A stretch of 64,000 nucleotides of DNA, taken from the NCBI GenBank assembly GCA_964016885.1, contig OZ024743.1, forward strand, positions 363,196,001 through 363,260,000. The letters run 5' to 3'. The notes under the pieces were generated by a model. It was not told where the DNA came from. It saw only the letters and a program-made list of their open reading frames with translations, and did no database searches. Below, piece by piece: positions 6,984-64,000 of this stretch (positions within the stretch are counted from its first letter, which is position 1; every line of letters starts with the position of its first letter). This DNA is from Eledone cirrhosa. Lineage: Eukaryota. The translations under genes were made by a program, and so were the position numbers.

Positions 6984-7052
<69 letters not shown>

Positions 7053-7056
<4 letters not shown>

Positions 7057-7246
7057 AACAAGTATGACCCCGACGGCAGAGCTCAAGCCGTTTCAACGGC
7101 TAATTCTGGACTGAGTCCAGAATTAGCCATCGAAACGGCTTGAGCTCTGGGTCATAGTTTTTCCTATTACCCACTCTACTACCCTAAGTATTGAGTACTT
7201 TAGTGCATTATGGTCCATCTGGTTCCTTACCGCATTTCCTTCGTTA
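7053..7246 (+). mobile_element. ~200-bp (TA)n-flanked palindromic element, copy A
   Basis: Terminal palindrome of ~115 nt plus an ~80-nt tail (attacccactctact...ttccttcgtta) shared with 18313-18507 and 42755-42958. Confidence 0.85.
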
Positions 7247-7274
7247 TATATATATATAACTGAATTATATATAT

Positions 7275-14025: not shown

Positions 14026-14560
14026 GATCGTGCCTGATTGTGGATGTGGCCTGCCCATTCGACACGAGAGTGCAAGAGAAGGAGAGGGAGAAAATTAACC
14101 GATACCAGGACTTAAAGTGGGGGGTAAAAAGGATTTGGAACTGCCATGAAGTCAAAGTGATCCCGATTATCATAGGCGCACTAGGGACTATCTCAAAAAG
14201 TTTCCAGAGATGGTTAAAGAAAATTGGCCCCTTCACGCTTTTTGGAACACTTCAAAAGGCATGCTTGCTGGGAACAGCAAGAACCCTCCGATACGTCCTG
14301 AATATCTGAGGCTGCAGGTAGTGGCTTGATATTCATTTCAACAAACTTTCCAGTTAACTAACATCAATGACTGAGACTCAAAGAGTAATAACAACAATAA
14401 TAATAATAATGTCGAATGGGCAGGCCACATCCACAATCAGGCACGATCTTTTTTCTTTGTCCACAACCACCAGGTCAGGTCTATTGTGTTCAAGTTTCTT
14501 GTCCGTCTGTATCCTAAAATCCCACAGCACCTTCACCTGATCGTTTTCTATCACCGTATG
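13650..14560. mobile_element. Cluster of R4/Dong 3'-end fragments separated by (AAT)n, including one inverted piece
   Basis: 13650-13890 is another family's end (IQKIVLMESAHILRK); 13947-13995 tail only; 14022-14385 RLE end on +; 14411-14557 RLE segment on -. Confidence 0.85.
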
Positions 14561-14581
14561 AGCATAATAATAATAATAATA

Positions 14582-17128
14582 ATACGCATTGTAGCAAAGA
14601 GTGCAAAAATTAGGCGATACGAGAGCAGAGTCAGTCAGTATAGACAGAACCGCACGTTTGACAACAACCAGAAGATGCTGTTTGGACAGCTTGAAGGGAA
14701 AGAAAGAGGCAACGACTTGATCCCTGAGGCGGAACAAACTAAGACATTCTGGAGAGGAATATGGGAGCAGGATGTTAAACATAATGACCAGGCAGTGTGG
14801 ATTGAGACAGTACAAAAGGAGATTAGTGAACAGGCACACCAACAAACTGATTTGAGTATCACAGTTGAAACTCTTAAGGGGCAGGCCAAAAAACTAACCA
14901 ACTGGAAATCACCAGGCCCAGATGGTGTGCAGGGGTATTGGATTAAAAATATAACATCCCTCCACCCGAAACTGACAACCATGTTCAATGACTGCTTGAT
15001 GTCAGGTGAGGTACCAGAGTGGTTGACAAAAGGTACTACAGTTCTGGTAATGAAAGACCGAATCAAGAGTAATGATGTTACCAACTATAGACCTATCACA
15101 TGTCTGTCCGTAATGTGGAAACTGTTGACAAGCATTATGTCTGAGGAAATCTACCATCACCTCCACACAAACAACTTGTTACCGGACGAACAGAAAGGAT
15201 GCCGAAAGAAGTCCCGTGGTACAAAGGACTAGTTACTTATTGATAAGATGGTAATGAGGAATTGCAAGAGGAGAGACACTGTTCTTGCCATGGGATGGAT
15301 AGACTACAAAAAGGCATTTGACATGGTACCTCATTCTTGGATCACCAAAGGCCTAGAGATCTTCAAGGTAGCAGATAACATCAGACAGTTGTTGGGCAAA
15401 AGTATGAAGTCCTGGAAAACAGAGTTAACATCGGCTGGAGAATCCTTGGGAGGCGTGAAGATCAAGAGAGGTATCTTCCAGGGAGATAGTCTGTCCCCTC
15501 TGTTGTTTGTTCTTGCCCTGATGCCCCTGACCATTATACTGCGAAAGGTGAGAGCAGGATACAAGTTGGGAAAGGAAGACCTTACCATCAATCACCTCCT
15601 CTTCATGGACGATCTTAAGCTCTTCGGGAAGAGTGAGAAGGTGTTAGATGTGCTTGTTGACACTGTCCATATTTTCAGCAATGATATATGTATGCAATTT
15701 GGTATTAGTAAGTGTGGAGTCCTTGTGATGAAGAGGGTAAATTGAGCAGAAGCAACGGAATCCAGGGACCAACAGGTGAGATGATAAAGGAAATAGACAC
15801 TGAAGAAGGATACAAGTATTTGGGTGTTCTGGAGGCTGATGACATCAAGAACAAAAGAATGAAGGAATTGATAAGATCTGAATACATTCGGAGAGTAAGG
15901 AGCGTATTAAAGTCACATCTGAACAGTAGGAATGCCATAAGTGCAGTAAATTCCCGAGCTGTGTCTATTATTAGGTACAGTGCGGGAATTCTGAGATGGA
16001 ATATTGCTGAACAAAAAGAAATGGATAGGAAGACTAGGAAGCTATTGACTATCTACAACATGTTCCACAAGAGGAATGATGTCGATAGACTCTACTTAAG
16101 GAGATCTGAAGGTGGAAGAGGTCTTATCAGCATAGAGGACTGTGTTCAGATGGAGAAAAACAACCTACACAAATACGTGACTGATAGTAAGGAGCCAATG
16201 CTCAGAACTGTACTGAAGGAGAGGACAATAGACCAGAGGATGTCCAAGGAGGAAATAACAACAAGGAGAAAGAGCAGTCTTCATGAAAAATCCCTTCATA
16301 GTACCTTCTTTGAGAAAACTGAATTCAGAGATCCACAGACATGGAACTGGTTGAAAAGAGGAGACCTTAAAAAGGCTACAGAAGGAATGTTAATGGCTGC
16401 GCAAGAGCAGGCCCTCAAAACGAAGTGGTTGAAACACCATATTTACAAGGAGGAGGCTAGCCCACTGTGCAGGATCTGTGGCTCACATTGTATCCGAGTG
16501 TAAACACCTAGCCCAGACTCACTATAAGGGCTGGAGACATGATGTGATGGGCAGGGTGATCCACTGGCACCTATGCAAAGTAAACAATTTACCACATTCT
16601 GAGAAGTGGTATGAGCATAAGCCAGAGTCGGTGATAGAAAACGATCAGGTGAAGGTGCTATGGGATTTTAGGATACAGACGAATAAGAAACTGGAACATA
16701 ATAGGCTTGACCTGGTGGTTTTGGACAAGAAAAAAAGATCGTACCTGATTGTAGATATAGCCTGCCCATTTCACACGAGAGTGCAAGAAAAAGAGAAGGA
16801 GAAAATTAACCGATACCAGGACTTAAAGTGAGAGGTAAAAAGGATTTGGAGCTGCCATGAAGTCAGAGTCGTCCCGATTGTCATAGGCGCACTAGGTACT
16901 ATCTCAAAGAGTTTACAAGGATGGTTAAAGAAAGTTAGTCCAGCCCGCTTTTGGAACACTTCAAAAGGCATGCTTGCTGGGAACAGCAAGAACCCTCCGA
17001 TACGTCCTGAATATCTGAGGCTGCAGGTAGTGGCTTGATATTCATTTCAACAAACTTTCCAGTTAACTAACTGTTAACTTTCCAGTTAACTAACAGTTAA
17101 CTATCAATGACTGAGACTCAAAGAACAA
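14582..17128 (+). mobile_element. R4/Dong-type non-LTR retrotransposon (RT plus restriction-like endonuclease), 5'-truncated, in (TAA)n
   Basis: IDYKKAFDMVPH, IFQGDSLSP, HLLFMDDLKL, CRICG..HIVSEC..RHD, KVLWDF, HNRLDLVV, DIACP. A few stops and frameshifts; ends gagactcaaagaac(AAT)n. Confidence 0.9.
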
Positions 17129-18255: not shown

Positions 18256-18312
<57 letters not shown>

Positions 18313-18315
<3 letters not shown>

Positions 18316-18507
18316 CAAAGGAATTGTGGTAAGGAACCAGATGGACCATAACGCACCAGAGTACTCAATACTTAGGGTAGTAAAGTGGGAAATAGGAAAA
18401 AGTATGACCCCGACGGCAGAGCTCAAGCCGTTTCGACGGCTATTTCAGTCCAGAAATAGCCGTCGAAACGGCTTGAGCTCTGCCGTCGGGGTCATACTTT
18501 TTTCCTA
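18313..18507 (-). mobile_element. ~200-bp (TA)n-flanked palindromic element, copy B
   Basis: Same element in the opposite orientation, (TA)n on both sides. Confidence 0.85.
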
Positions 18508-18664
18508 TATATATATATATATATTTTTCCTATATATATATTTATATTTATATATATATATATACATGCATGTATATACATACTATATGTATATACACAC
18601 ATACTATAAATATAAACATATATATATATATATACATGTTTATATATATATATATATATATATG

Positions 18665-19563: not shown

Positions 19564-20258
19564 TCACATCTTGGAGGTTAGTGAAGTTGGTGACCGCACT
19601 GAATGTTTAGTCAACATCTGAGGTTGTCTTTCAGATATTGCTACTGTGGCCGATGGAAGCTTGTTAGGGTCTGTAATTGCTGGTATCACTTCACTGTTAG
19701 TGGTAAACAGGAAACTCGGTAGATTCGTATTGTTTGACAAAGCTGTGCTCAGCAATGGTTTGTGTGTGTTCTGTAGAGGAAACGGTGACGGGTTCATATG
19801 CGAGTTACGACCGAAGAACGCAGTATTGGTACAATTGGTTGAGTTGTTGCTGATTCGACTGGGGCACGACGTTGCAGGTGTTACAACTGCGGTTGGTGAT
19901 GCAACATTCAAGTAAGAAGTACCGTGAGTACCCTGAGCTACGTATGGATTATATCGGTGAAGACTTCGTATTGATGTTCCAGTGGCACACGTCAGGTTTG
20001 ACCCAGTTCCATACTGCATGCGTGTAACTTGTGATGCAACCCGACTGATTGTGTCACGATAGACAGTGCCGGTGTTGATAGAGGCATCAGGTCGGAATCT
20101 GGTCTGAAGGTAAGACATGATGCGGATACAGCGACTGTCGTTTGTGTCAATACCCTCCACATCAGTCATGTAACGAACTACTTCCTGCATACATTCATTG
20201 TATCCAACCTGGTAGTGGTGCATAAAATCAGCCCATACATCAGACGTGAACCAGTCAC
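19564..20258 (-). CDS. HELT: HELT terminal coding exon (Orange domain plus S/T/N-rich tail)
   Basis: Acceptor atctacag|GT completes the split Gly codon (phase 1). It continues [51 protein letters not shown] (Orange domain, cf. HELT YFHYGYHECMKNLVHYLTTVE) and is open to the stop at 19564. There is no WRPW/YRPW end, as expected for HELT. Confidence 0.93.
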
Positions 20259-20269
20259 CTGTAGATAAA

Positions 20270-20900
<631 letters not shown>

Positions 20901-21205
20901 ATTGAGAAGTAGTACAGTAATCCCACGATCTCAACACGTAAAAACAGTTGTTTCAGCAAAGCAAATAAACGAGTTTGCTATCTATCTATCTATCTATCTA
21001 TCTTGATAGAGTAAGACACGCTTCGCATCGGCTCCGCTATTCCATCGGGATTTACCCTTACTATTGTAAGTACCGGATAAATTTTTTAGTGCAACACATT
21101 TGGAACACTAACCCCTGTTATTTAGGGAAACATTTTTGCATTTACCCCCTTTTTAGGGGGTAAAATAAATATCTATTTTTGCCGAAAAATTTCTTTCTTG
21201 GCAGC

Positions 21206-23041
21206 ATGGCGGAAAAGATGGCAGACATGTCTGCCATTAGCTCTGCCACGCCCCCCAAGTCTGAAGAACAAAAAATAATTACAACAAAATTAGACATTGA
21301 AACAAACAAACAAAATGAAAAAACAAATGTTAAGGAAAATGAGCAAACAGAAAACAAACAAACAGAAAATAATACAAATAACGACAGGGCAACTTTCGCC
21401 CAGAAAACAAAGCAATCCATTACATACACACCAATTGACCTAACTGCCGCCAGAGAAAAACTGGCCGAAGCAAAGAAACATATTGTTTTGGGGGAGAATG
21501 GAATGTTTTCCATTAACTCCCCCCCAGAATTCAAGAAAGCCAGAGCAGAAAACACAGTTATATACAGAACTATACTAAACCAGTCAAGAAAGCCAGCACA
21601 GCCCAGCCAAATGGAAATAGAGTTAGTCCTAAAAGACTATATGAAGAATATTCTCTTCATACGAAAGGACCGACTCTATGGCAGCATTTCGGTCCTAACA
21701 AGAGACAAAGAAACGGCGGTTCAGCTTTCCCTAAGCCCACTCTCGTCGACAACATATAGCTTCTATCCCTCCTACATGGGTAGAAGAACACAGAGAATAA
21801 AAGTAAAAACAATGCTGCCCACAATGGACTTCTGGTGGGCTATTGCTGGCTTCATTGATATGGGCGAAGACACTATGCTGTCAATGGGGAAGGCAACTGG
21901 AGATGCGTTCCTGGGAATGGGCCTCGACATACTAGTCCAAATGAGGCCCGAAAGAATAGCACAAATCCCGGATCGCATCTGGCTGGATGACCTTACCCCA
22001 ATAGACATAATTGTAGAGGGGAGAAGACCAGCATGCTATTTATGCATGGAAAGGGGACACGTTAAGGCTAACTGCCCGAAACGTATCCCCCAAAAAGGAC
22101 TATTGCCCACACCCACCACAAACAGTACACCAGCACCACCCACCTCCAAAAATACACTAATACCACACACAGCAAACAAAATACAGACACCACCAACCAC
22201 AAACACAACACAAACATCACCACCACCAGCACCAAACACAAGCACGACACAAAAATCACCACCACCAACCACAACACAAACATCACCACCACCATTACCA
22301 ACCACAAGCACGACACAAACATTACCACCACCACCACCACAAAACCCATTCCAAACAAATAATAAAAAAAACAGTAACAAATCTACCCCTCCCGCAAAAA
22401 AAAAACAACCACACAACACGTCCCTCCCACCTAGCGCTGAAGAGTTTCCCCCAACTTCTGAAGAAGAAGGAGGAGAAGCCTTCAGACAAGTTAAAAGAAA
22501 AAAAAGAAAACACACACCCAGCACACCACAAATAACCCACACACAAACACCAACTCCAATCAAAAACACCCCACCCTCAACAAACAAAAATAAATCTGCG
22601 CCTCCCCTCTCCGAAACATTGACAGCATCACAAAAAAAGACGTTGCAATACACATATATAAATAAAGAAAACAAAAAACTGGTTAAATTAATAAACAATA
22701 ACCCTATGGTGCAGACCGAAGGGCCAAACTTTATCTCAACAGAGAACTTCACCCATTTAAAAATGATAAAGGTCCCTCTGGACCTTTATCGTTCCTTAAA
22801 AGAACAATTTAGACGGGACGTGAGCCCCCCCTGTTTAAAACCGTTGAATCGCGTCCTCTTGAAAGATTTCCCCATAACCGCCCCTCTCCCTGACACAACT
22901 CCAAATACCCCAACCCCACCACACACGTGTACCCCCACACCACCACAAAACATCCCTCCACCCAACACACCTGATGCCATGGAAATTACGCAACCCGGAG
23001 AGGTAAGTGCTTTTCTTTCTTCACTTTCAACACCAAAATAG
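21206..23041 (+). CDS. Tx1 ORF1 (gag-like, CCHC zinc knuckle, long Pro/Thr-rich tail)
   Basis: Open frame of about 610 aa from the first ATG; contains CYLCMERGHVKANC. Confidence 0.85.
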   Translation: MAEKMADMSAISSATPPKSEEQKIITTKLDIETNKQNEKTNVKENEQTENKQTENNTNNDRATFAQKTKQSITYTPIDLTAAREKLAEAKKHIVLGENGMFSINSPPEFKKARAENTVIYRTILNQSRKPAQPSQMEIELVLKDYMKNILFIRKDRLYGSISVLTRDKETAVQLSLSPLSSTTYSFYPSYMGRRTQRIKVKTMLPTMDFWWAIAGFIDMGEDTMLSMGKATGDAFLGMGLDILVQMRPERIAQIPDRIWLDDLTPIDIIVEGRRPACYLCMERGHVKANCPKRIPQKGLLPTPTTNSTPAPPTSKNTLIPHTANKIQTPPTTNTTQTSPPPAPNTSTTQKSPPPTTTQTSPPPLPTTSTTQTLPPPPPQNPFQTNNKKNSNKSTPPAKKKQPHNTSLPPSAEEFPPTSEEEGGEAFRQVKRKKRKHTPSTPQITHTQTPTPIKNTPPSTNKNKSAPPLSETLTASQKKTLQYTYINKENKKLVKLINNNPMVQTEGPNFISTENFTHLKMIKVPLDLYRSLKEQFRRDVSPPCLKPLNRVLLKDFPITAPLPDTTPNTPTPPHTCTPTPPQNIPPPNTPDAMEITQPGEVSAFLSSLSTPK

Positions 23042-23046
23042 ATCAA

Positions 23047-26000
23047 TTGAGAGTTGGCTGTTTGAACGCGCGTGGCCTGAGCTCAGCTTGGAAGCAAGCA
23101 AAGCTTCTAAGTGACCTCAGGTCACAAAGTATAGATGTGATGGTTGTTTGCGAGAGTCGGATCAGCAGCGTGAGACAGCTGGCGCCCGCCTTCGATGACT
23201 TTGAGATGCACGCATCTCTCTGTCAACCCGGAGGCGGGGGGGGGGGGAGTTGCCGTACTGCTGGATAAACGTCTGACTCTCGACGTACAGATTGTTCACT
23301 CGGACCCGGGGGGTCGATTACTGGTGCTGGACGTCGGAGGTGGTGAAGGCGGGGCTTTCAGACTGGTCGGTCTTTATGCTCCCTTCGGGGCGGAGAGAGC
23401 CGACTTCTTCCAACGTCTGGAGACTTTTCTAGGAACGTCGCGTTCCCTGCTTTTAGTGGGGGACTGGAATGGAATCCTAGATGCGCGTTGGGACTATGCA
23501 GGGGCATGTCCCGATAGAGGGGGGTGTAGCAGCCTCAAGGGGTTACTCGATCGATTCGACCTGGTCGATAGATTTCGACTAGATTGTCCAACTGCGCCAA
23601 CCTGGACCTGGGCAAACCGCAGTGGACAATCTAGATCGTACCTAGATAGGTTTTTGGTTAGGAGTAAGGATAGGGACGTATTTAGTTGTCCAGAACTGAT
23701 CATGGTTGGCTATTCAGATCACAAATTAGTGACCTGCGTGGTCAACCTTGATAGAACGCATAGACAGGGTCCCGGTTACTGGAAGATGAACTTGTCCTTA
23801 CCGACAAAGAAAGATTACAGAAACCGGATTAGTAGCTTAGTTAAGATGCGGTTGACGGGAGCGATCGTCAACAGTAGGTGGTGGATATCTCTAAAGAGAG
23901 AGATTAGAGTAAGTTCGATAGGTTACAGTAAGGAACTAGCGGCGAATAGAAATAGGAGGGAAAGGGAGTTAACAGATAAACTAGAAGAGGCGATTAGGAG
24001 CGGAGACGTAGCCAGAGTGTTAGCGACGAGAACGGCATTGAGCCAGTTCTTTGACGCGAAGCACGAAGGCTGCGTTGTCCGAAGTAAAATACGTGCTTTA
24101 GGAAACGAGGGGACCAAAGCTGTTAGCTGGGCCCGCGTGACAGAAGCCAAGAGTGGGATTAAATCCACCATTCGGTCTTTGCGAGACCAGGATGGACGGG
24201 TGATCCTTGAACCTGAGCGAATGTGCGAGACCTTTCAAAGGCACTTTGCTCGACTGTTCGGAGGTGGCGGGGGGCCGGACGGAGATGTGGACTTCGGTCC
24301 ATACCTCGACGGTCTACCGCGTCTTTCGAGCGGCGAAGCGGAGTGCTGCGAAGGGCCAATCACAGCCACTGAAATCGGGGAAGCGCTCAGCCAATGCAGC
24401 AGACGCAAATCCCCGGGTCTCGATGGTCTACCATACGAACTTTATTTAGCTATGCCGGTCTTGTTCTCCGAACTCCTCGAGGCTGTCTATTGCAACTGGC
24501 AACAGAACGGGAGAATTCCCTGTTCTGTGACCAAGGGCGTGGTCACGCTAGTGAGGAAGGACGAGAGCAAGGGGGACGACTTAAGTAACTTTAGGCCCAT
24601 AACTCTGCTGAATGCAGAGTTACAGATTTTGGCCAAGGTGTTGGCGAAGAGGTTGGCGCTTGTGGTAGGTGGTTTGGTGGGAGACGCGCAGACATGCGCT
24701 ATCCCGTCCAGGTCCATTCACGACAACCTCCACCTCATGCGATACATCATAGAGAGGGTTGGCTACGAACCCGGCTTTGGTGGGGCCCTGATCAACTTGG
24801 ATCAATCTAAGGCGTTCGATAGGGTCGACCATGGTTACCTGGATGCGGTGCTAGCGGCGGCGGGCTTCGGACCCGTTTTCAGGGGCTGGATTTCTGCCAT
24901 GCACAGTGGCAACATCTACTCTAGGATTAAAGTAAACGGCTACCTCTCGGAGCCGTTTCAAATCACCCGATCCATCAGACAGGGGTGCCCCCTCTCCTCC
25001 CTTCTGTACGTATTGACTCTCGAGCCACTGCTGCGGAAGTTGGAGTTGCTGCGGGGCATACCCCTGGAACCGGGATTGCACAAAGCGGTCTCGGCCTATG
25101 CCGACGACGTAACAGTAATGGTGGCGGACGCCTCGGAAATCGGGGCGATCGCTATCCTACTGGAGGAATACGAAAGGCTGACGGGGGCTAAGCTGAACCA
25201 GGACAAGTCAGTCGGTTTGCAACTCGGAACGTGGAGGGGCAAACCGATGCCGTTAGACGGTGTCGTCGGGCGGTGGACGGAGGGCCCGGTGAAGCTGCTC
25301 GGGGTCTGGTTCGGACCGGACCTCCAGGTGGAGAAGAATTGGGGCGAGGTGACGAGCAGGGTGTTTGCGCTGACCCAGAAGTGGGCCAAGTGCAAACTAT
25401 CACTGAAAGGTCGGGCGGAGGTGACGAACGCTTACATAGCGTCCGTCATCTACTACCGCCTGACCGTCGTGCCTTGCCCCAAGGAAAAGCTCACCATCAT
25501 GGAACGCATGCTCTTCCAGTTCCTCTGGAAGAAGCGGCCTCCAATGGTGAGGAGATCCATCTGCTGCCAGCACCCTTCGAAAGGAGGGCTGGGTATGCCG
25601 TGGCTGTTGATGCGTAGGCACGCATTGAGGCTACGGCATCTACAGGTATTCCTCAACGGTCAGCCGGTGTGGGCCCCGTTTGTGAGGCGAGCCTTCCCAC
25701 AGCTCGTCTCGCTCACCGAACTGCAATCCTGGGTGAAGCAAAGACCGAGAAAACTGGGCAACTGGCACACTGAGTGTGCCCAGGCGCTCACGGCTATCTG
25801 GCAAGCGGACCCGACTGTCAGTGGAGAATCCACCTCGACATTCTATAGAGGGTTGGTGGCTAGCAGGGGCGACGACACCCTTGGAGAGTCGCTAGGCATG
25901 GAGGAGGACGAACTGGCCAGCCTGTTCGGTAGAACTTTCGGCCCGGGACCCATGGACAACTTCCAGAGGTCCCTAGCCTGGCAGTGTTACCGGGGGGCTC

Positions 26001-26479
26001 TGCCCGTTCGAGAAAAGCTCTACAGACACGGGCGCCCGGGCAGGGATCCCGCGAAAAAGATCTGTCCCAGATGCGTGCGCGACGAGGAAACCGTTGCGCA
26101 TGCACTGGTACACTGCCCGGGCGTTGCCGATCTGTGGGGCTACGTCGAACGACTGCTGTCGCGTGTGGCACCGATTCGATTAACCGCCGAGTCTGTGGTG
26201 AACATCAAGCCGCCTCCCCCCTTCAGAAATGAAGCAGAGGCGGTCTTTCTGTGCGTAATAGCCATGATGAAAGAGGTTGTGTGGTGGACGCGCCTGAAAG
26301 GTCTGAGGTCGGGTGACTTTCTCTCCGGCCATCACCTGGTTTACTTCTTCCGATACCACTTCGGAAGAAGAATCAGGATGGAGAGAGAAGTGCTTGGTCC
26401 CAGACAGTTTTATGAAAGGTGGGTGAAAGAAGCGAGAATGGCCCGTGTAAATGGGCCTTCTCTCTACATTGTTCTGTAG
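23047..26479 (+). CDS. Tx1 ORF2 (APE endonuclease, reverse transcriptase, C-terminal CCHC) with one frameshift in a G12 run
   Basis: APE motifs RVGCLNARGL, VGDWN, SYLDRF, SDHKLV; RT motifs LDQSKAFDRVDH, RQGCPLS, YADDV; CPRC...HALVHC. The frame switches at G12, 23236-23247. Confidence 0.9.
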
Positions 26480-42540: not shown

Positions 42541-42754
42541 TTGAAATTGGTAATGGCGGCGATGGTGGTAGTGGCAGAAGGAAACTGGTGATTGTTGATA
42601 GTGGCTAAGTAGTAGTGGTATTGTTGACAACAGATAGTGCTGGTTATGGTGGTCATGGCGGTAGTATTGGTGGTGGTGCTGGTGTATTGGTCATAGTGGA
42701 TTTCGTTGGTATTGAAGAAATAGATGTGTTTGTATATATATATATATATATATA

Positions 42755-42955
42755 TAGCAACGAGTAGGACCCCGACGGCTGAGATCAAGGTGTTTCGACG
42801 GCTAATTCTGGACTAAAATGTCCAGAATTAGCCGTCGAAACGGCTTGAGCTCAGCCGTCGGGGTCCTACTCGTTCCTATTACCCACTCTACTACCCTAAG
42901 TATTGAGTACTTTGGTGCGTTATGGTCCACCTGGTTCCTTACCACATTTCCTTCG

Positions 42956-42958
<3 letters not shown>
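42755..42958 (+). mobile_element. ~200-bp (TA)n-flanked palindromic element, copy C
   Basis: Same element with the same end points, (TA)n on both sides. Confidence 0.85.
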
Positions 42959-43045
<87 letters not shown>

Positions 43046-61649: not shown

Positions 61650-63384
61650 TAAGGATGCAATTTACTTCTAGCACTCAACGTCATATTACTTCCTGAAACA
61701 AGGATGGCGGAGTATATTTATAAAGAGGAAAATGCGAAGTTGAAGATGTATAACGTTAAAATATATATTGTTTCTCAAATATTATATGTTATATATAAGT
61801 ACAAAATACTATATATTTCTGTAATGATATATGGCTCTATTGACTTATATTCAACATGCAGAAAGAACACCTGAATATTTCTGCAAAGAACATACCCGTA
61901 CCTAGCAGGAAGACATATTTAAAACTTCTTATACAAAAAACGGATTCGTTCCTTAAAAGGTTGCGTTGGCGCGCCTTTCATTTCGATAACCAGGATAAAG
62001 CGGACAATAAACAGGATAAATTTGGGTTTAAAACTTATAATAACCCTCCGAGTAACCCAGCTTTGTTACCTTTCGAAAACGATGTCTTTGAACTCATACG
62101 GAGTATCAAATTTAGGAACAGGAGCAATTCCTTCCAAGAATAGAATTCGTTCTATTAAGGATTCTAATGTCGTGCACGTCCACTCCGACAAAACTGGTAA
62201 TCTATATCAAGTGGAGCGCAGTACTTACCATCAACTGTTACATAATGCTGTAACCAAGGATTACCGGAAAACTGATCAGAGTGTTATCAATGACATCAAC
62301 GATGCTGGGTTTAAAATCACTTCAGAACTCAACATCCAGGACCGGACCGAACCTCTGGACCCTAAGTATCCCCACGTTACCCTGAAGGGTAAAACCCAAT
62401 TTCGCTAACAACTCTTCTATTCTGCTAATTAACCCTACGAAGTCTGATTTAGGTAGACTTAGTAAAAGAATTTTAGATAGAATTATACCTGAAATTAGAA
62501 ACTTGGCCCCCCTTGCACTATGGAATAATTCTTTCGCGGTGATAGATTGGTTCAATGGCATATGCAACAAGGAACATTGCCGTTTTATCCAATTCGACAT
62601 CAACAACTACTACTCCTTCATCACTTTACCACTTCTTCTTACAGCTATCAATTTCGCTAAAACGCGCACGGTGGTTAAGGATTTCGAAGTTGATGTCATT
62701 TCCAAAGCCTGTAAGTCGGTGATTAATTTCGACGACTCTATTTGGATAAACAAATCTAATAGTACCCCATTCCAAGTGAGTATGGGCGCCAGCGATTCGG
62801 CGGAGGTTACTAATCTTATCGGCCTTTTCCTTCTTTTATCTATCAAGGTAGAATTCTTTAACGTAGGCGGCGGCCTGTACCGCGATGACGGTCTTTTGAC
62901 CATGACAAAGTGCTGTCCACGCGCTTGCGACCGGTTTAGAAAAGAACTTACAGCTTTCTTTAAAGGTTTCAACCTCTCTATACAGGTTGAGGCCAACGTT
63001 TCGGTCGTAAATTACCTCAACGTTACCCTCAATTTATCGAATGGCTTGCACTACCCGTATAGAAAGCCGAATGATTCGCTTAATTACATCAGTATGCATT
63101 CTAACCATCCTGCCAGCATAACCAAGAACCTGGTAAGAAACGTTTCTTTGAGGCTTTCTCGTCTATCTACAAACGAGCATATTTTCACCGACCATTCCAC
63201 ATATTACAATGAAGCTCTTGCTCGGAGTGGATTTGTCGATAAGGTAGCATATACTAAGTATGAGCATAAACCTAGGAAAAATAGATCCCGACGCATTATA
63301 TGGTATAATATGGATGTGGCCACACCATTAGCTAAAATCTTTCTTTCCCTTATTAAGAAGCATTTCCCCTCAGCACATAAATAT
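61650..63384 (+). mobile_element. Penelope-like element (Naiad-type) RT region, degenerate, interrupted by CRE
   Basis: SAKNIPVP..KRLRWRAFHF..FGFKT N-terminus; QFDINNYY, MGASDSAEV, GLYRDDGL, YRKPN...SNHP, RRIIWYN. Begins next to (TA)n. Confidence 0.85.
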
Positions 63385-64000
63385 GTATTTACAATGTGCA
63401 ATTGTGGCACTCACCAATAGGCTTATGCATGGTGCCCTGGATCCTCACATCCGAGGCTTCTTTTTTTCAGCTAGCCTGACCGCTGTCAGGAAGAAAGAGG
63501 GTAGCATACGCCCCATCGCTGTGGACAATGTCTTCCGGAGGCTGGCTGCTAAGGTGGTCTGCAGGTCCATAACACCTGAACTGGATGAGGAGTTCAGTCC
63601 GGTGCATAACACCTGAACTGGGTGTCGGCGTGTCCGGTGGCTGTGAGTGGGTCGCACATGCAACCAGGCAGTTCTTCAATAGCTGCCCACCGGAACCGGT
63701 ATCCAGGGACTCCAGATACGCTTGTCAAGCTTGACATGAGGAATGCCTTTAACTGCATACGCCAGGTCAATCTGCTCGATGCCTGCAACAGCTGAGCCCC
63801 CTACGCCTACCCGCTGGTCTACTTGTCATATCGAGCCCCGAACACGCTCCTTGCTGCTGATACGGTCACCTTTGGCCACTGCGGTTCAACAGGGAAACCC
63901 TTTAGGCCTCCTCCTGTTTGCCCTTGGTATAGACCACAATGCCGGGAGTATCACGGCCCCTCTCAACGTTTGAGACCTGGATGATGCTACGCTGGGCGGG
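63385..64000 (+). mobile_element. CRE-clade RT fragment running off the window end
   Basis: LTAVRKKEGSIRPIAVDNVFRRLAAK, VKLDMRNAFN, VQQGNPLGLLLF, LDDATLGG. Confidence 0.8.

What the first reader, a model, noticed from the sequence alone, without database searches (positions are those of the whole stretch)
42755..42958. Palindromic elements built from a mirrored half-hammerhead (3 copies: 7053-7246, 18313-18507, 42755-42958)
Seen: each ~200-bp (TA)n-flanked element has a terminal palindrome. Its arm reads GCCGTC-GAAACGGC-TTGAGCTC(T/A)-GCCGTC-GGGGTC, i.e. the stem II 3' strand, GAAA, a 5-6 bp stem III with a palindromic AGCT loop, a GUC triplet and a stem I 3' strand. The palindrome axis is the stem II hairpin. 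Where CTGANGA should be, there is instead the inverted copy of the 3' half. Copy-specific variants are mirrored in both arms (GTAGGACC/GGTCCTAC and GGCTGAG/CTCAGCC in copy C; GTATGACC/GGTCATAC and GGCAGAG/CTCTGCC in copy B), while the end points are the same in all copies. Known: Penelope-like elements carry pLTR hammerheads and make 5' inversions. Inference: cDNA snaps back on the ribozyme's own stem II, giving a family with only the substrate half on both strands. It might be cleaved in trans by a CUGANGA-bearing parent RNA, and it would also yield hairpin dsRNA.
Basis: partly seen in the sequence, partly recalled or inferred. Interest (0 to 1): 0.8.

Follow-up and report, generated by a model that had tools for sequence, protein, structure and literature searches.

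The report
Run-off stubs of a Penelope retrotransposon
These 200-base palindromes are the shortest insertions of a Penelope-like jumping gene, and they carry only the back half of its hammerhead-type RNA motif; each was likely made when two DNA copies were started on the element's RNA and both ran off its front end, so tens of thousands of them would record where that RNA begins and, more rarely, where it likely cuts itself.

Summary
The three palindromes are stubs of a Hydra-clade Penelope-like element: an intact 719-aa RT + GIY-YIG copy was found, and the arm 19-mer has 62,608 exact hits. The parent has the missing hammerhead half, mostly as UUGANAA (U3-A8; 1,999 hits). CUGANGA gave only 10 hits.

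Counting from the predicted cut, one arm ends at +20 and the other at +100 (57 of 60 pairs). This is the known PLE 'tail'. Inner ends pile up at about -41, in helix II (127 of 155 arms end by -49).

Snap-back is not supported: the tail-less arm is often the longer one. The same -37..-45 boundary also appears in 13 direct, non-palindromic junctions. A second class starts exactly at the predicted cut (about 600 vs about 110 at a control position).

Best reading: both target strands prime on one RNA species, both cDNAs run off its 5' end, and they are joined. That end is probably a promoter start inside helix II, or rarely the ribozyme cut. Trans-cleavage of the palindromic RNA is energetically excluded. 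No RNA data were available, so the start site and cleavage are inferred.

The parts
42754..42818 (-). Copy C, tail-less arm: parent positions -45..+20 (predicted cut after -1), i.e. 3' strand of helix II, GAAA, helix III, GUC, 3' strand of helix I
42819..42819 (.). Copy C junction: one base between the two arms
42820..42879 (+). Copy C, tailed arm: parent positions -40..+20; predicted cleavage site after 42859
42880..42959 (+). Copy C, 80-bp tail (+21..+100); in tandem full-length copies this is the start of the 5' UTR and runs on to the ATG at +191
18447..18508 (+). Copy B, tail-less arm (-41..+20)
18392..18446 (-). Copy B, tailed arm (-35..+20); the recurrent 35|41 junction
18312..18391 (-). 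Copy B, 80-bp tail
7052..7112 (-). Copy A, tail-less arm (-41..+20)
7113..7167 (+). Copy A, one junction base plus tailed arm (-41..+20) with a 7-base deletion across the GUC site
7168..7247 (+). Copy A, 80-bp tail
42734..42756 (.). (TA)n target tract left of copy C; a second tract follows the tail. Both element ends share TAT with the tract, so no TSD can be read

Best explanation
The palindromes are the shortest insertions of a Hydra-clade Penelope-like retrotransposon, and each was likely formed when both cut strands of a (TA)n target primed reverse transcription on the element's RNA, at +20 and at +100, and both cDNAs ran off a fixed 5' end of that RNA at about -41 and were joined head to head. 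SHOWN: the parent and its ORF; the two outer ends; the pile-up of inner ends; both arms short together or long together; direct junctions that restart at the same boundary; a minor class starting exactly at the predicted cut. KNOWN from PMC11167929 (another PLE, in vitro): the protein nicks and extends both strands, starts at two internal sites that delimit the tail, and does not need ribozyme cleavage. INFERRED: the boundary is an RNA 5' end; it is most likely a Pol II start on an initiator-like motif inside helix II, so the transcript has only the substrate half; the RT can jump from that end to an RNA 3' end; the +1 class comes from RNA already cut by the ribozyme.
For: [quoted passage not shown] Tail rule: 57 of 60 pairs are one tailed plus one tail-less arm. 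Boundary: 127 of 155 arms end by -49, 4 at -50..-99, 24 beyond; in 47 jointly split pairs 78 of 94 ends fall at -33..-47 and 1 beyond. Genome-wide 19-mer counts fall 62,608 (to -23), 38,283 (to -40), 8,247 (to -50). Made anew each time: 42 distinct junctions in 47 pairs, mostly 0-1 nt microhomology. One template: subfamily tags agree in 44 of 48 pairs vs 11.4 by shuffling. Coupling: of the 23 elements in the first 30 core hits, 14 show an inverted partner and all 14 partners cross helix II (my tally), where independent stopping would leave most at the boundary. Direct jumps: 13 junctions in 12 loci, among 53 copies that run into the 5' UTR, join +162..+918 to an arm starting at about -37..-45; 2 more in 20 loci. 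Cut-site class: 951 vs 257 hits; 19 of 30 vs 13 of 30 are junctions, about 600 vs about 110, including mini-palindromes with both arms ending at +1. Sister family 2 stops at -36..-43 in 8 of the 10 arms not classed as parent; the other 2 are parent copies missed by the filter.
Against: No RNA evidence for a start at -41 or for cleavage. The cap-copy test was inconclusive (first extra base C 9, G 9, T 2; P=0.19), and extra G also occurs at +1 ends. None of the full-length copies I traced starts at -41; they start further upstream, or at +1..+123. The TATA-like word 28 nt upstream is absent in family 2. Short arms are slightly more symmetric than independent draws (P=0.009), and one junction (35|41) recurs in 5 of 47 pairs, both unexplained. 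About 40% of family-1 parents have a non-Watson-Crick 3-8 pair, so cleavage cannot be essential in all subfamilies. The survey covers only the first 12-19 Mb of one contig plus the window.
Confidence: 0.66

Rival explanations
1. Same double priming, but the boundary is a reverse-transcriptase stall at helix II (structure or bound protein) on a full-length RNA, not an RNA end. The direct junctions would be template switches from the stall.
For: Ends lie in the 3' strand of helix II, up to its apical stem, and spread from -16 to -47. No full-length copy starts at -41. The cap test is inconclusive.
Against: Most ends fall in the weak AU-rich apical stem, not in the GC-rich helices. Long arms pair only with long arms (14 of 14), which needs an RNA-level state. 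The +1 class shows the same double-ended pattern at a site where an RNA end is expected.
Confidence: 0.17
2. First reader's model, close to the self-priming idea of PMC3846280: one cDNA snaps back on stem II and copies itself.
For: Arms share subfamily tags (44 of 48), 19 of 47 pairs are symmetric within 2 nt, and symmetry is slightly above chance. Self-priming was proposed in print for PLE palindromes.
Against: A copy of the tailed cDNA cannot be longer than it, yet the tail-less arm is longer in 16 of 47 short and 8 of 21 long pairs, in some by over 2 kb. Several copies join a tail-less arm to a tailed arm that ends inside the tail. The parent loop is missing from nearly all junctions, and some centres have no spacer. 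The boundary recurs without any inversion.
Confidence: 0.07
3. The short palindromes are a self-propagating non-autonomous family: stubs are transcribed and re-copied by the parent's enzyme, so many are second-generation.
For: Very high copy number. Some junction insertions look like pieces of other junctions. The 35|41 junction recurs. The initiator-like word is kept in arms that reach -41.
Against: 42 distinct junctions in 47 pairs, and the recurrent junction carries different subfamily tags. All tags examined match or resemble parent subfamilies. The boundary must still first arise from the parent. This can add to the best explanation rather than replace it.
Confidence: 0.08
4. DNA-transposon MITE with TA target duplication and GGAA..TTCC terminal repeats.
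For: The palindrome alone reads TA-GGAA...TTCC-TA in (TA)n.
Against: The arms are the 3' end of an RT + GIY-YIG element and grade into kb-long inverted copies. TTCC is the 3' strand of the ribozyme's outer helix I. The tail is on one side only, and centres differ per copy.
Confidence: 0.01

Closest known systems
Hydra clade of C-terminal EN+ Penelope-like elements (Craig et al. 2021, PMC8557442; section 11 read whole, other passages)
   Same: Single ORF, unit about 3 kb, DKT, RWK-like (RWR), CxCX5C linker, C-terminal GIY-YIG with CxxC and CxH, (TA)n targets, hammerhead, inverted 5'-truncated copy, tail on one end.
   Different: Tail is 80 bp rather than 30-40. The hammerhead core is mostly U3-A8. 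Most copies are stubs ending at one boundary inside helix II.
Poseidon element PAc in vitro (Frangieh et al. 2024, PMC11167929; parts 1-2 of 4 read)
   Same: Both target strands are extended, two internal RT start sites delimit the tail, AT-rich targets, cleavage not required.
   Different: Here the start sites share TAT with the target and lie in the 5' UTR. Genomic copies mark fixed 5' ends, end-to-end jumps and a class starting at the cut site; that paper found no reads beginning or ending at the cut site.
PLE hammerheads (Cervera and de la Pena 2014, PMC4209133; parts 1-2 of 4 read)
   Same: Type I hammerhead in the pLTR, long helix II, palindromic loop 3, U3-A8 variant already reported in Schistosoma, opposite-strand pairs 100-700 bp apart.
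   Different: Helix III here is 5-6 bp, so it could fold as a monomer. The stubs lack the core. The circular-RNA model of that paper does not predict a boundary at -41.
Palindromes at inverted pLTR junctions of Adineta vaga Penelope elements (Arkhipova et al. 2013, PMC3846280; passages read)
   Same: Head-to-head arms with a palindromic junction, optional tail, TATA and initiator-like words in the pLTR.
   Different: They were read as self-priming. The arm-length polarity and the direct junctions here argue for two primed cDNAs.
Animal non-LTR retrozymes (bioRxiv 10.64898/2026.07.22.740005; part 1 of 5 read)
   Same: Short, non-coding, PLE-derived.
   Different: Retrozymes are direct tandem repeats with complete hammerheads; these are inverted and lack the core.
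L1 twin priming, and minus-strand strong-stop DNA of LTR elements (recalled, no call)
   Same: Two primers on one RNA give an inversion; run-off at the RNA 5' end is followed by a jump to a 3' end.
   Different: Here the two arms overlap in sequence, priming is internal and target-primed, and there is no poly(A) or tRNA primer.

Membership tests
Penelope-like element, Hydra clade (parent) | Single ORF with RT and C-terminal GIY-YIG endonuclease | tested here: met
   719-aa intact ORF; motifs read by eye; Atlas neighbours with HTH_animal/GIY-YIG. Pfam and PDB sequence scans gave nothing.
Penelope-like element, Hydra clade (parent) | DKT, RWK-like motif, CxCX5C linker, CxxC and CxH | tested here: met
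   HSDKTG, RLRWR, CNCPDRSIC, CNLC, CKH, against section 11 of PMC8557442.
Penelope-like element, Hydra clade (parent) | Placement in an RT phylogeny with reference Hydra elements | not tested
   No reference sequences were held.
Penelope-like element (insertion anatomy) | Partial tandems (pLTR), inverted 5'-truncated copy, tail on one end, (TA)n target | tested here: met
   (57 of 60).
Type I hammerhead ribozyme (parent) | Core C3UGANG8A...GAAA...UH with three helices | tested here: met
   Met as the U3-A8 variant; N7 varies. In 31 hand-picked copies 89% of cells pair and 4 pairs change on both sides, three of them probably one event between two families. About 40% of family-1 parents lack a Watson-Crick 3-8 pair.
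Type I hammerhead ribozyme (parent) | Self-cleavage | not testable with these tools
   Indirect only: excess of arms starting at +1. The hammerhead fold is within 0-1.6 kcal/mol of the best fold in 5 of 5 U3-A8 copies, but 6.8 worse or impossible in 2 of 2 C3-G8 copies.
Hammerhead ribozyme (the stubs themselves) | Catalytic 5' strand present | tested here: not met
Non-LTR retrozyme | Direct tandem units, each with a complete hammerhead | tested here: not met
   Inverted, core-less, dispersed.
DNA MITE | TIRs at both ends, fixed internal structure, transposase partner | tested here: not met
   One-sided tail, 42 junctions in 47 pairs, RT-encoding parent.

The most novel reading that the evidence does not exclude
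Penelope-like elements replicate with an LTR-like strand transfer. A promoter inside helix II of the hammerhead sets the RNA 5' end at -41 and ribozyme cleavage sets the 3' end, giving a 41-nt terminal repeat. The RT is primed twice in the 5' UTR, runs off the 5' end and jumps to the 3' end. This would explain tails, pseudo-LTRs, tandems and inversions at once. The stubs would be fossil double strong-stop cDNAs, and the +1 class would be genomic evidence that the ribozyme cuts in the germ line.
Probability: 0.35. Interest if true: 0.78.

Novelty: new variant of a known kind. Interest (0 to 1): 0.55.

Why it matters
How Penelope-like elements make pseudo-LTRs, tandems and head-to-head inversions, and whether their hammerheads cut in vivo, are stated open questions (PMC2377424, PMC8557442, PMC11167929). 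This family leaves tens of thousands of natural reaction products with single-base ends. They give exact predictions: two priming sites, two RNA 5' ends and end-to-end jumps. An intact ORF is available to test them in the published in vitro assay. If transcribed, the stubs would also be a large source of about 55-bp perfect hairpins. The anatomy itself (inverted truncated copy plus tail) is already known.

Tried and rejected
Rfam: no match. Pfam: nothing for 3 of 3 proteins. PDB sequence search: nothing.

Sequencing runs: no RNA holder listed. Contigs of 3 runs were laid, but contigs cannot show RNA ends, so they were not used as evidence.

Cap-derived G at -42: inconclusive. A splice branch point at A-45 as the barrier was dropped, because family 2 lacks that A yet has the same boundary. 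RNA dimerisation through the GAGCTC loop: the palindrome is kept in both families, but I had no test; left open. Trans-cleavage of whole stubs was rejected on energy. The canonical CUGANGA parent is rare. A genome-wide count of short palindromes by spacer length was not obtained; spacing comes from fetched loci.

Look-ups of earlier findings by sequence, by place and with a long word list were empty.

Literature searches listed no paper whose title or abstract describes a fixed 5' boundary in helix II or run-off palindromes of PLEs. Subscription papers, Repbase and Dfam were not searchable, and no supplements were read; file S2 of PMC8557442 may hold related hammerheads. PMC5625713 (passages) gave only context on palindromic repeats and RNA editing. 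PMC7229834 was seen only as a listing.

Full report
Numbering: -1 is the C of the GUC triplet and +1 the next base. The host is an unnamed animal genome of 3.0 Gb.

1. Observation. The three copies are present as described, are 85-86% identical and sit in (TA)n tracts. Each is a palindrome plus an 80-bp tail; copy C folds far better than 200 shuffles. The arms reach -41/-41 (A), -35/-41 (B) and -40/-45 (C). No other family member was found in the window.

2. The parent. A tail 21-mer has 35,058 exact hits, some of them in satellite arrays; an arm 19-mer has 62,608. In several loci the arm is preceded by a long 3' UTR and an ORF, not by a mirror image. Fetched copies give a 710-aa frame and an intact 719-aa ORF in a 3,118-nt unit. 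It has RWR, DKT, CxCX5C, a C-terminal GIY-YIG-type domain, CxxC and CxH. These are the marks of the Hydra clade in PMC8557442 (section read whole), which also inserts in (TA)n. Pfam and PDB scans were blank; the Atlas neighbours carry HTH_animal and GIY-YIG. No phylogeny was run. In tandem copies the tail continues into the 5' UTR and an ATG at +191.

3. The ribozyme. The parent reads ACCCC-UUGANAA-G, a long helix II, GAAA, a 5-6-bp helix III with a GAGCUC loop, GUC, GGGGU. An outer helix I (GGAA/UUCC) ends at the tail-less terminus. Counts: UUGANAA 1,999 with N free; all four 3-8 combinations 3,491; CUGANGA 10. So about 1,480 are non-Watson-Crick, mostly C3.A8 in the first 100 listed. A sister family has 237 hits, mostly U3-A8. 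In 31 copies that I chose for diversity, 89% of cells pair and 4 pairs change on both sides; three of these are probably one event between the families. The hammerhead fold is the best fold, or within 1.6 kcal/mol of it, in 5 of 5 U3-A8 copies. It competes with a local hairpin that hides GAAA, and it loses in 2 of 2 C3-G8 copies. One copy folds at z -2.6. The U3-A8 variant and opposite-strand pairs are in print (PMC4209133).

4. Outer ends. 57 of 60 inverted pairs have one arm ending at +20 and one at +100; both ends share TAT with the target. PMC11167929 (parts 1-2 of 4) shows for another PLE that the protein extends both target strands from two internal RNA sites that delimit the tail, and that cleavage is not needed. 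The constant end points are therefore explained by known chemistry.

5. Inner ends. In loci from the first 12.4 Mb of one contig plus the window, 127 of 155 arms end by -49, 4 between -50 and -99, and 24 beyond. Family-2 arms were filtered out, one satellite locus was left out, and arms under about 13 nt are invisible to this count. Joint splitting of 47 short tailed/tail-less pairs puts 78 of 94 ends at -33..-47 and one beyond. Genome-wide counts drop 4.6-fold between -40 and -50; that pattern covers only the variants I listed. In 40 further loci, 52 of 55 arms reaching -40 are truncated, most at -40..-42. Family 2 behaves alike (small n). Junctions are diverse (42 in 47), with 0-1 nt microhomology in 24 of the 31 without insertion, and tags agree between arms in 44 of 48 pairs.

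6. Snap-back tested. A self-copy of the tailed cDNA cannot be longer than it. The tail-less arm is longer by 3 nt or more in 16 of 47 short pairs (tailed longer 12, equal 19). In long pairs it is longer in 8 of 21 (tailed longer 10, near-equal 3, my tally; 9 of these loci were picked because both arms had the core). In some it is longer by over 2 kb or a whole unit. Several copies join a tail-less arm to a tailed arm that ends inside the tail. In favour of snap-back: a slight excess of symmetry (P=0.009) and the precedent in PMC3846280 (passages).

7. The boundary belongs to the template. Of the 23 elements among the first 30 core hits, 14 show an inverted partner, and all 14 partners reach -74 or further (my tally). 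335 copies run from the tail on into the 5' UTR. Of 53 distinct ones examined, 26 have the core upstream and 27 do not. In 12 loci, 13 direct junctions join +162..+918 to an arm starting at about -37..-45 (counting up to 5 inserted bases; one has a 28-nt insertion), and the upstream unit often begins with the same short palindrome. One locus has the unit twice, which may be a later duplication. Twenty longer fetches (12 repeats, 8 new) add two such junctions and four that restart at +1. These junctions are not inverted, so palindrome decay or fold-back cannot explain them. Against: no full-length copy traced starts at -41; one starts at +1.

8. A second end at the cut site. A purine before +1 has 951 hits, against 257 for a control three bases upstream. 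19 of 30 and 13 of 30 inspected are junctions, giving about 600 and about 110 (three subfamilies only). Several are mini-palindromes with both arms ending at +1 and one or two extra bases between them. This is the pattern expected from run-off at a ribozyme-cut end. It is indirect, and the class is about 1% of the main one. An earlier AI note on another genome (e1-9822609) reports the same; another (e1-9850483) found only a mild preference. I checked neither.

9. What makes the -41 end. Both families keep a YYANWYY word with its A at -41, and family 1 has a second such word at -45 (consensus recalled). Some subfamilies have a TATA-like word 28 nt upstream. PLE promoters lie in the pLTR (PMC2377424; PMC3846280; passages). 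The cap test failed to decide. I put a promoter start first and a nuclease cut in loop II second; a stall remains the main rival.

10. Trans-cleavage and dsRNA. Binding the parent's 5' half to a whole stub costs +66 kcal/mol; binding to a lone arm gains 4 (rough nearest-neighbour sums). Hairpin RNA needs transcription, which I could not examine.

11. Verdict. A real feature and a member of a known kind of insertion, with a new, sharply bounded variant that carries mechanistic information. Identity as PLE stubs is about 0.97 likely, double priming with run-off 0.66, and the full promoter-plus-strand-transfer model 0.35. Interest 0.55.

Noticed in passing
window 61880-63420 (+): Broken copy of a second Hydra-type Penelope ORF, 51% identical to the parent over 342 aa; its 3' end is replaced by another retroelement, and no hammerhead core was found nearby.
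   Followed up: partly
L070 (G000:C1:14,234,900-14,243,000): A satellite with a 58-bp unit built from part of the 80-bp tail; such arrays inflate the tail count.
   Followed up: partly
genome-wide; L009, L127, L206: A large subfamily carries a C3.A8 mismatch in the hammerhead core, between rare C3-G8 and common U3-A8 forms: a possible compensatory path caught mid-way.
   Followed up: partly
window 18446/18447; L082, L086, L114, L119, L146: One junction (tailed arm -35, tail-less arm -41) recurs with the same polarity in different subfamilies; 11 of 24 blunt joins after -41 start at -35. Unexplained.
   Followed up: partly
L253, L271, L294: Direct junctions with a short A run plus G before an arm starting at -40, as if the RT jumped onto oligo-adenylated RNA ends; three other upstream units end in one T run at +314..+317.
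   Followed up: no
parent ribozyme, e.g. L043:1489-1611: The repeated GCCGUC allows an alternative fold that hides GAAA in a hairpin, within 2 kcal/mol of the hammerhead fold: a possible on/off switch.
   Followed up: partly
L155-L182, L133, L138: An older sister family with the same tail, ends and boundary and with compensatory changes in helix II.
   Followed up: partly
window 21164-26479 and 14375-16503 (+): Long LINE-type ORFs (625 aa and 1,101 aa; a second, fragmented one); family not tested.
   Followed up: no
window 19564-20286 (-): A 240-aa frame whose start resembles the Orange domain of a Hes/Hey-type factor (resemblance recalled, not tested), perhaps a host exon.
   Followed up: no
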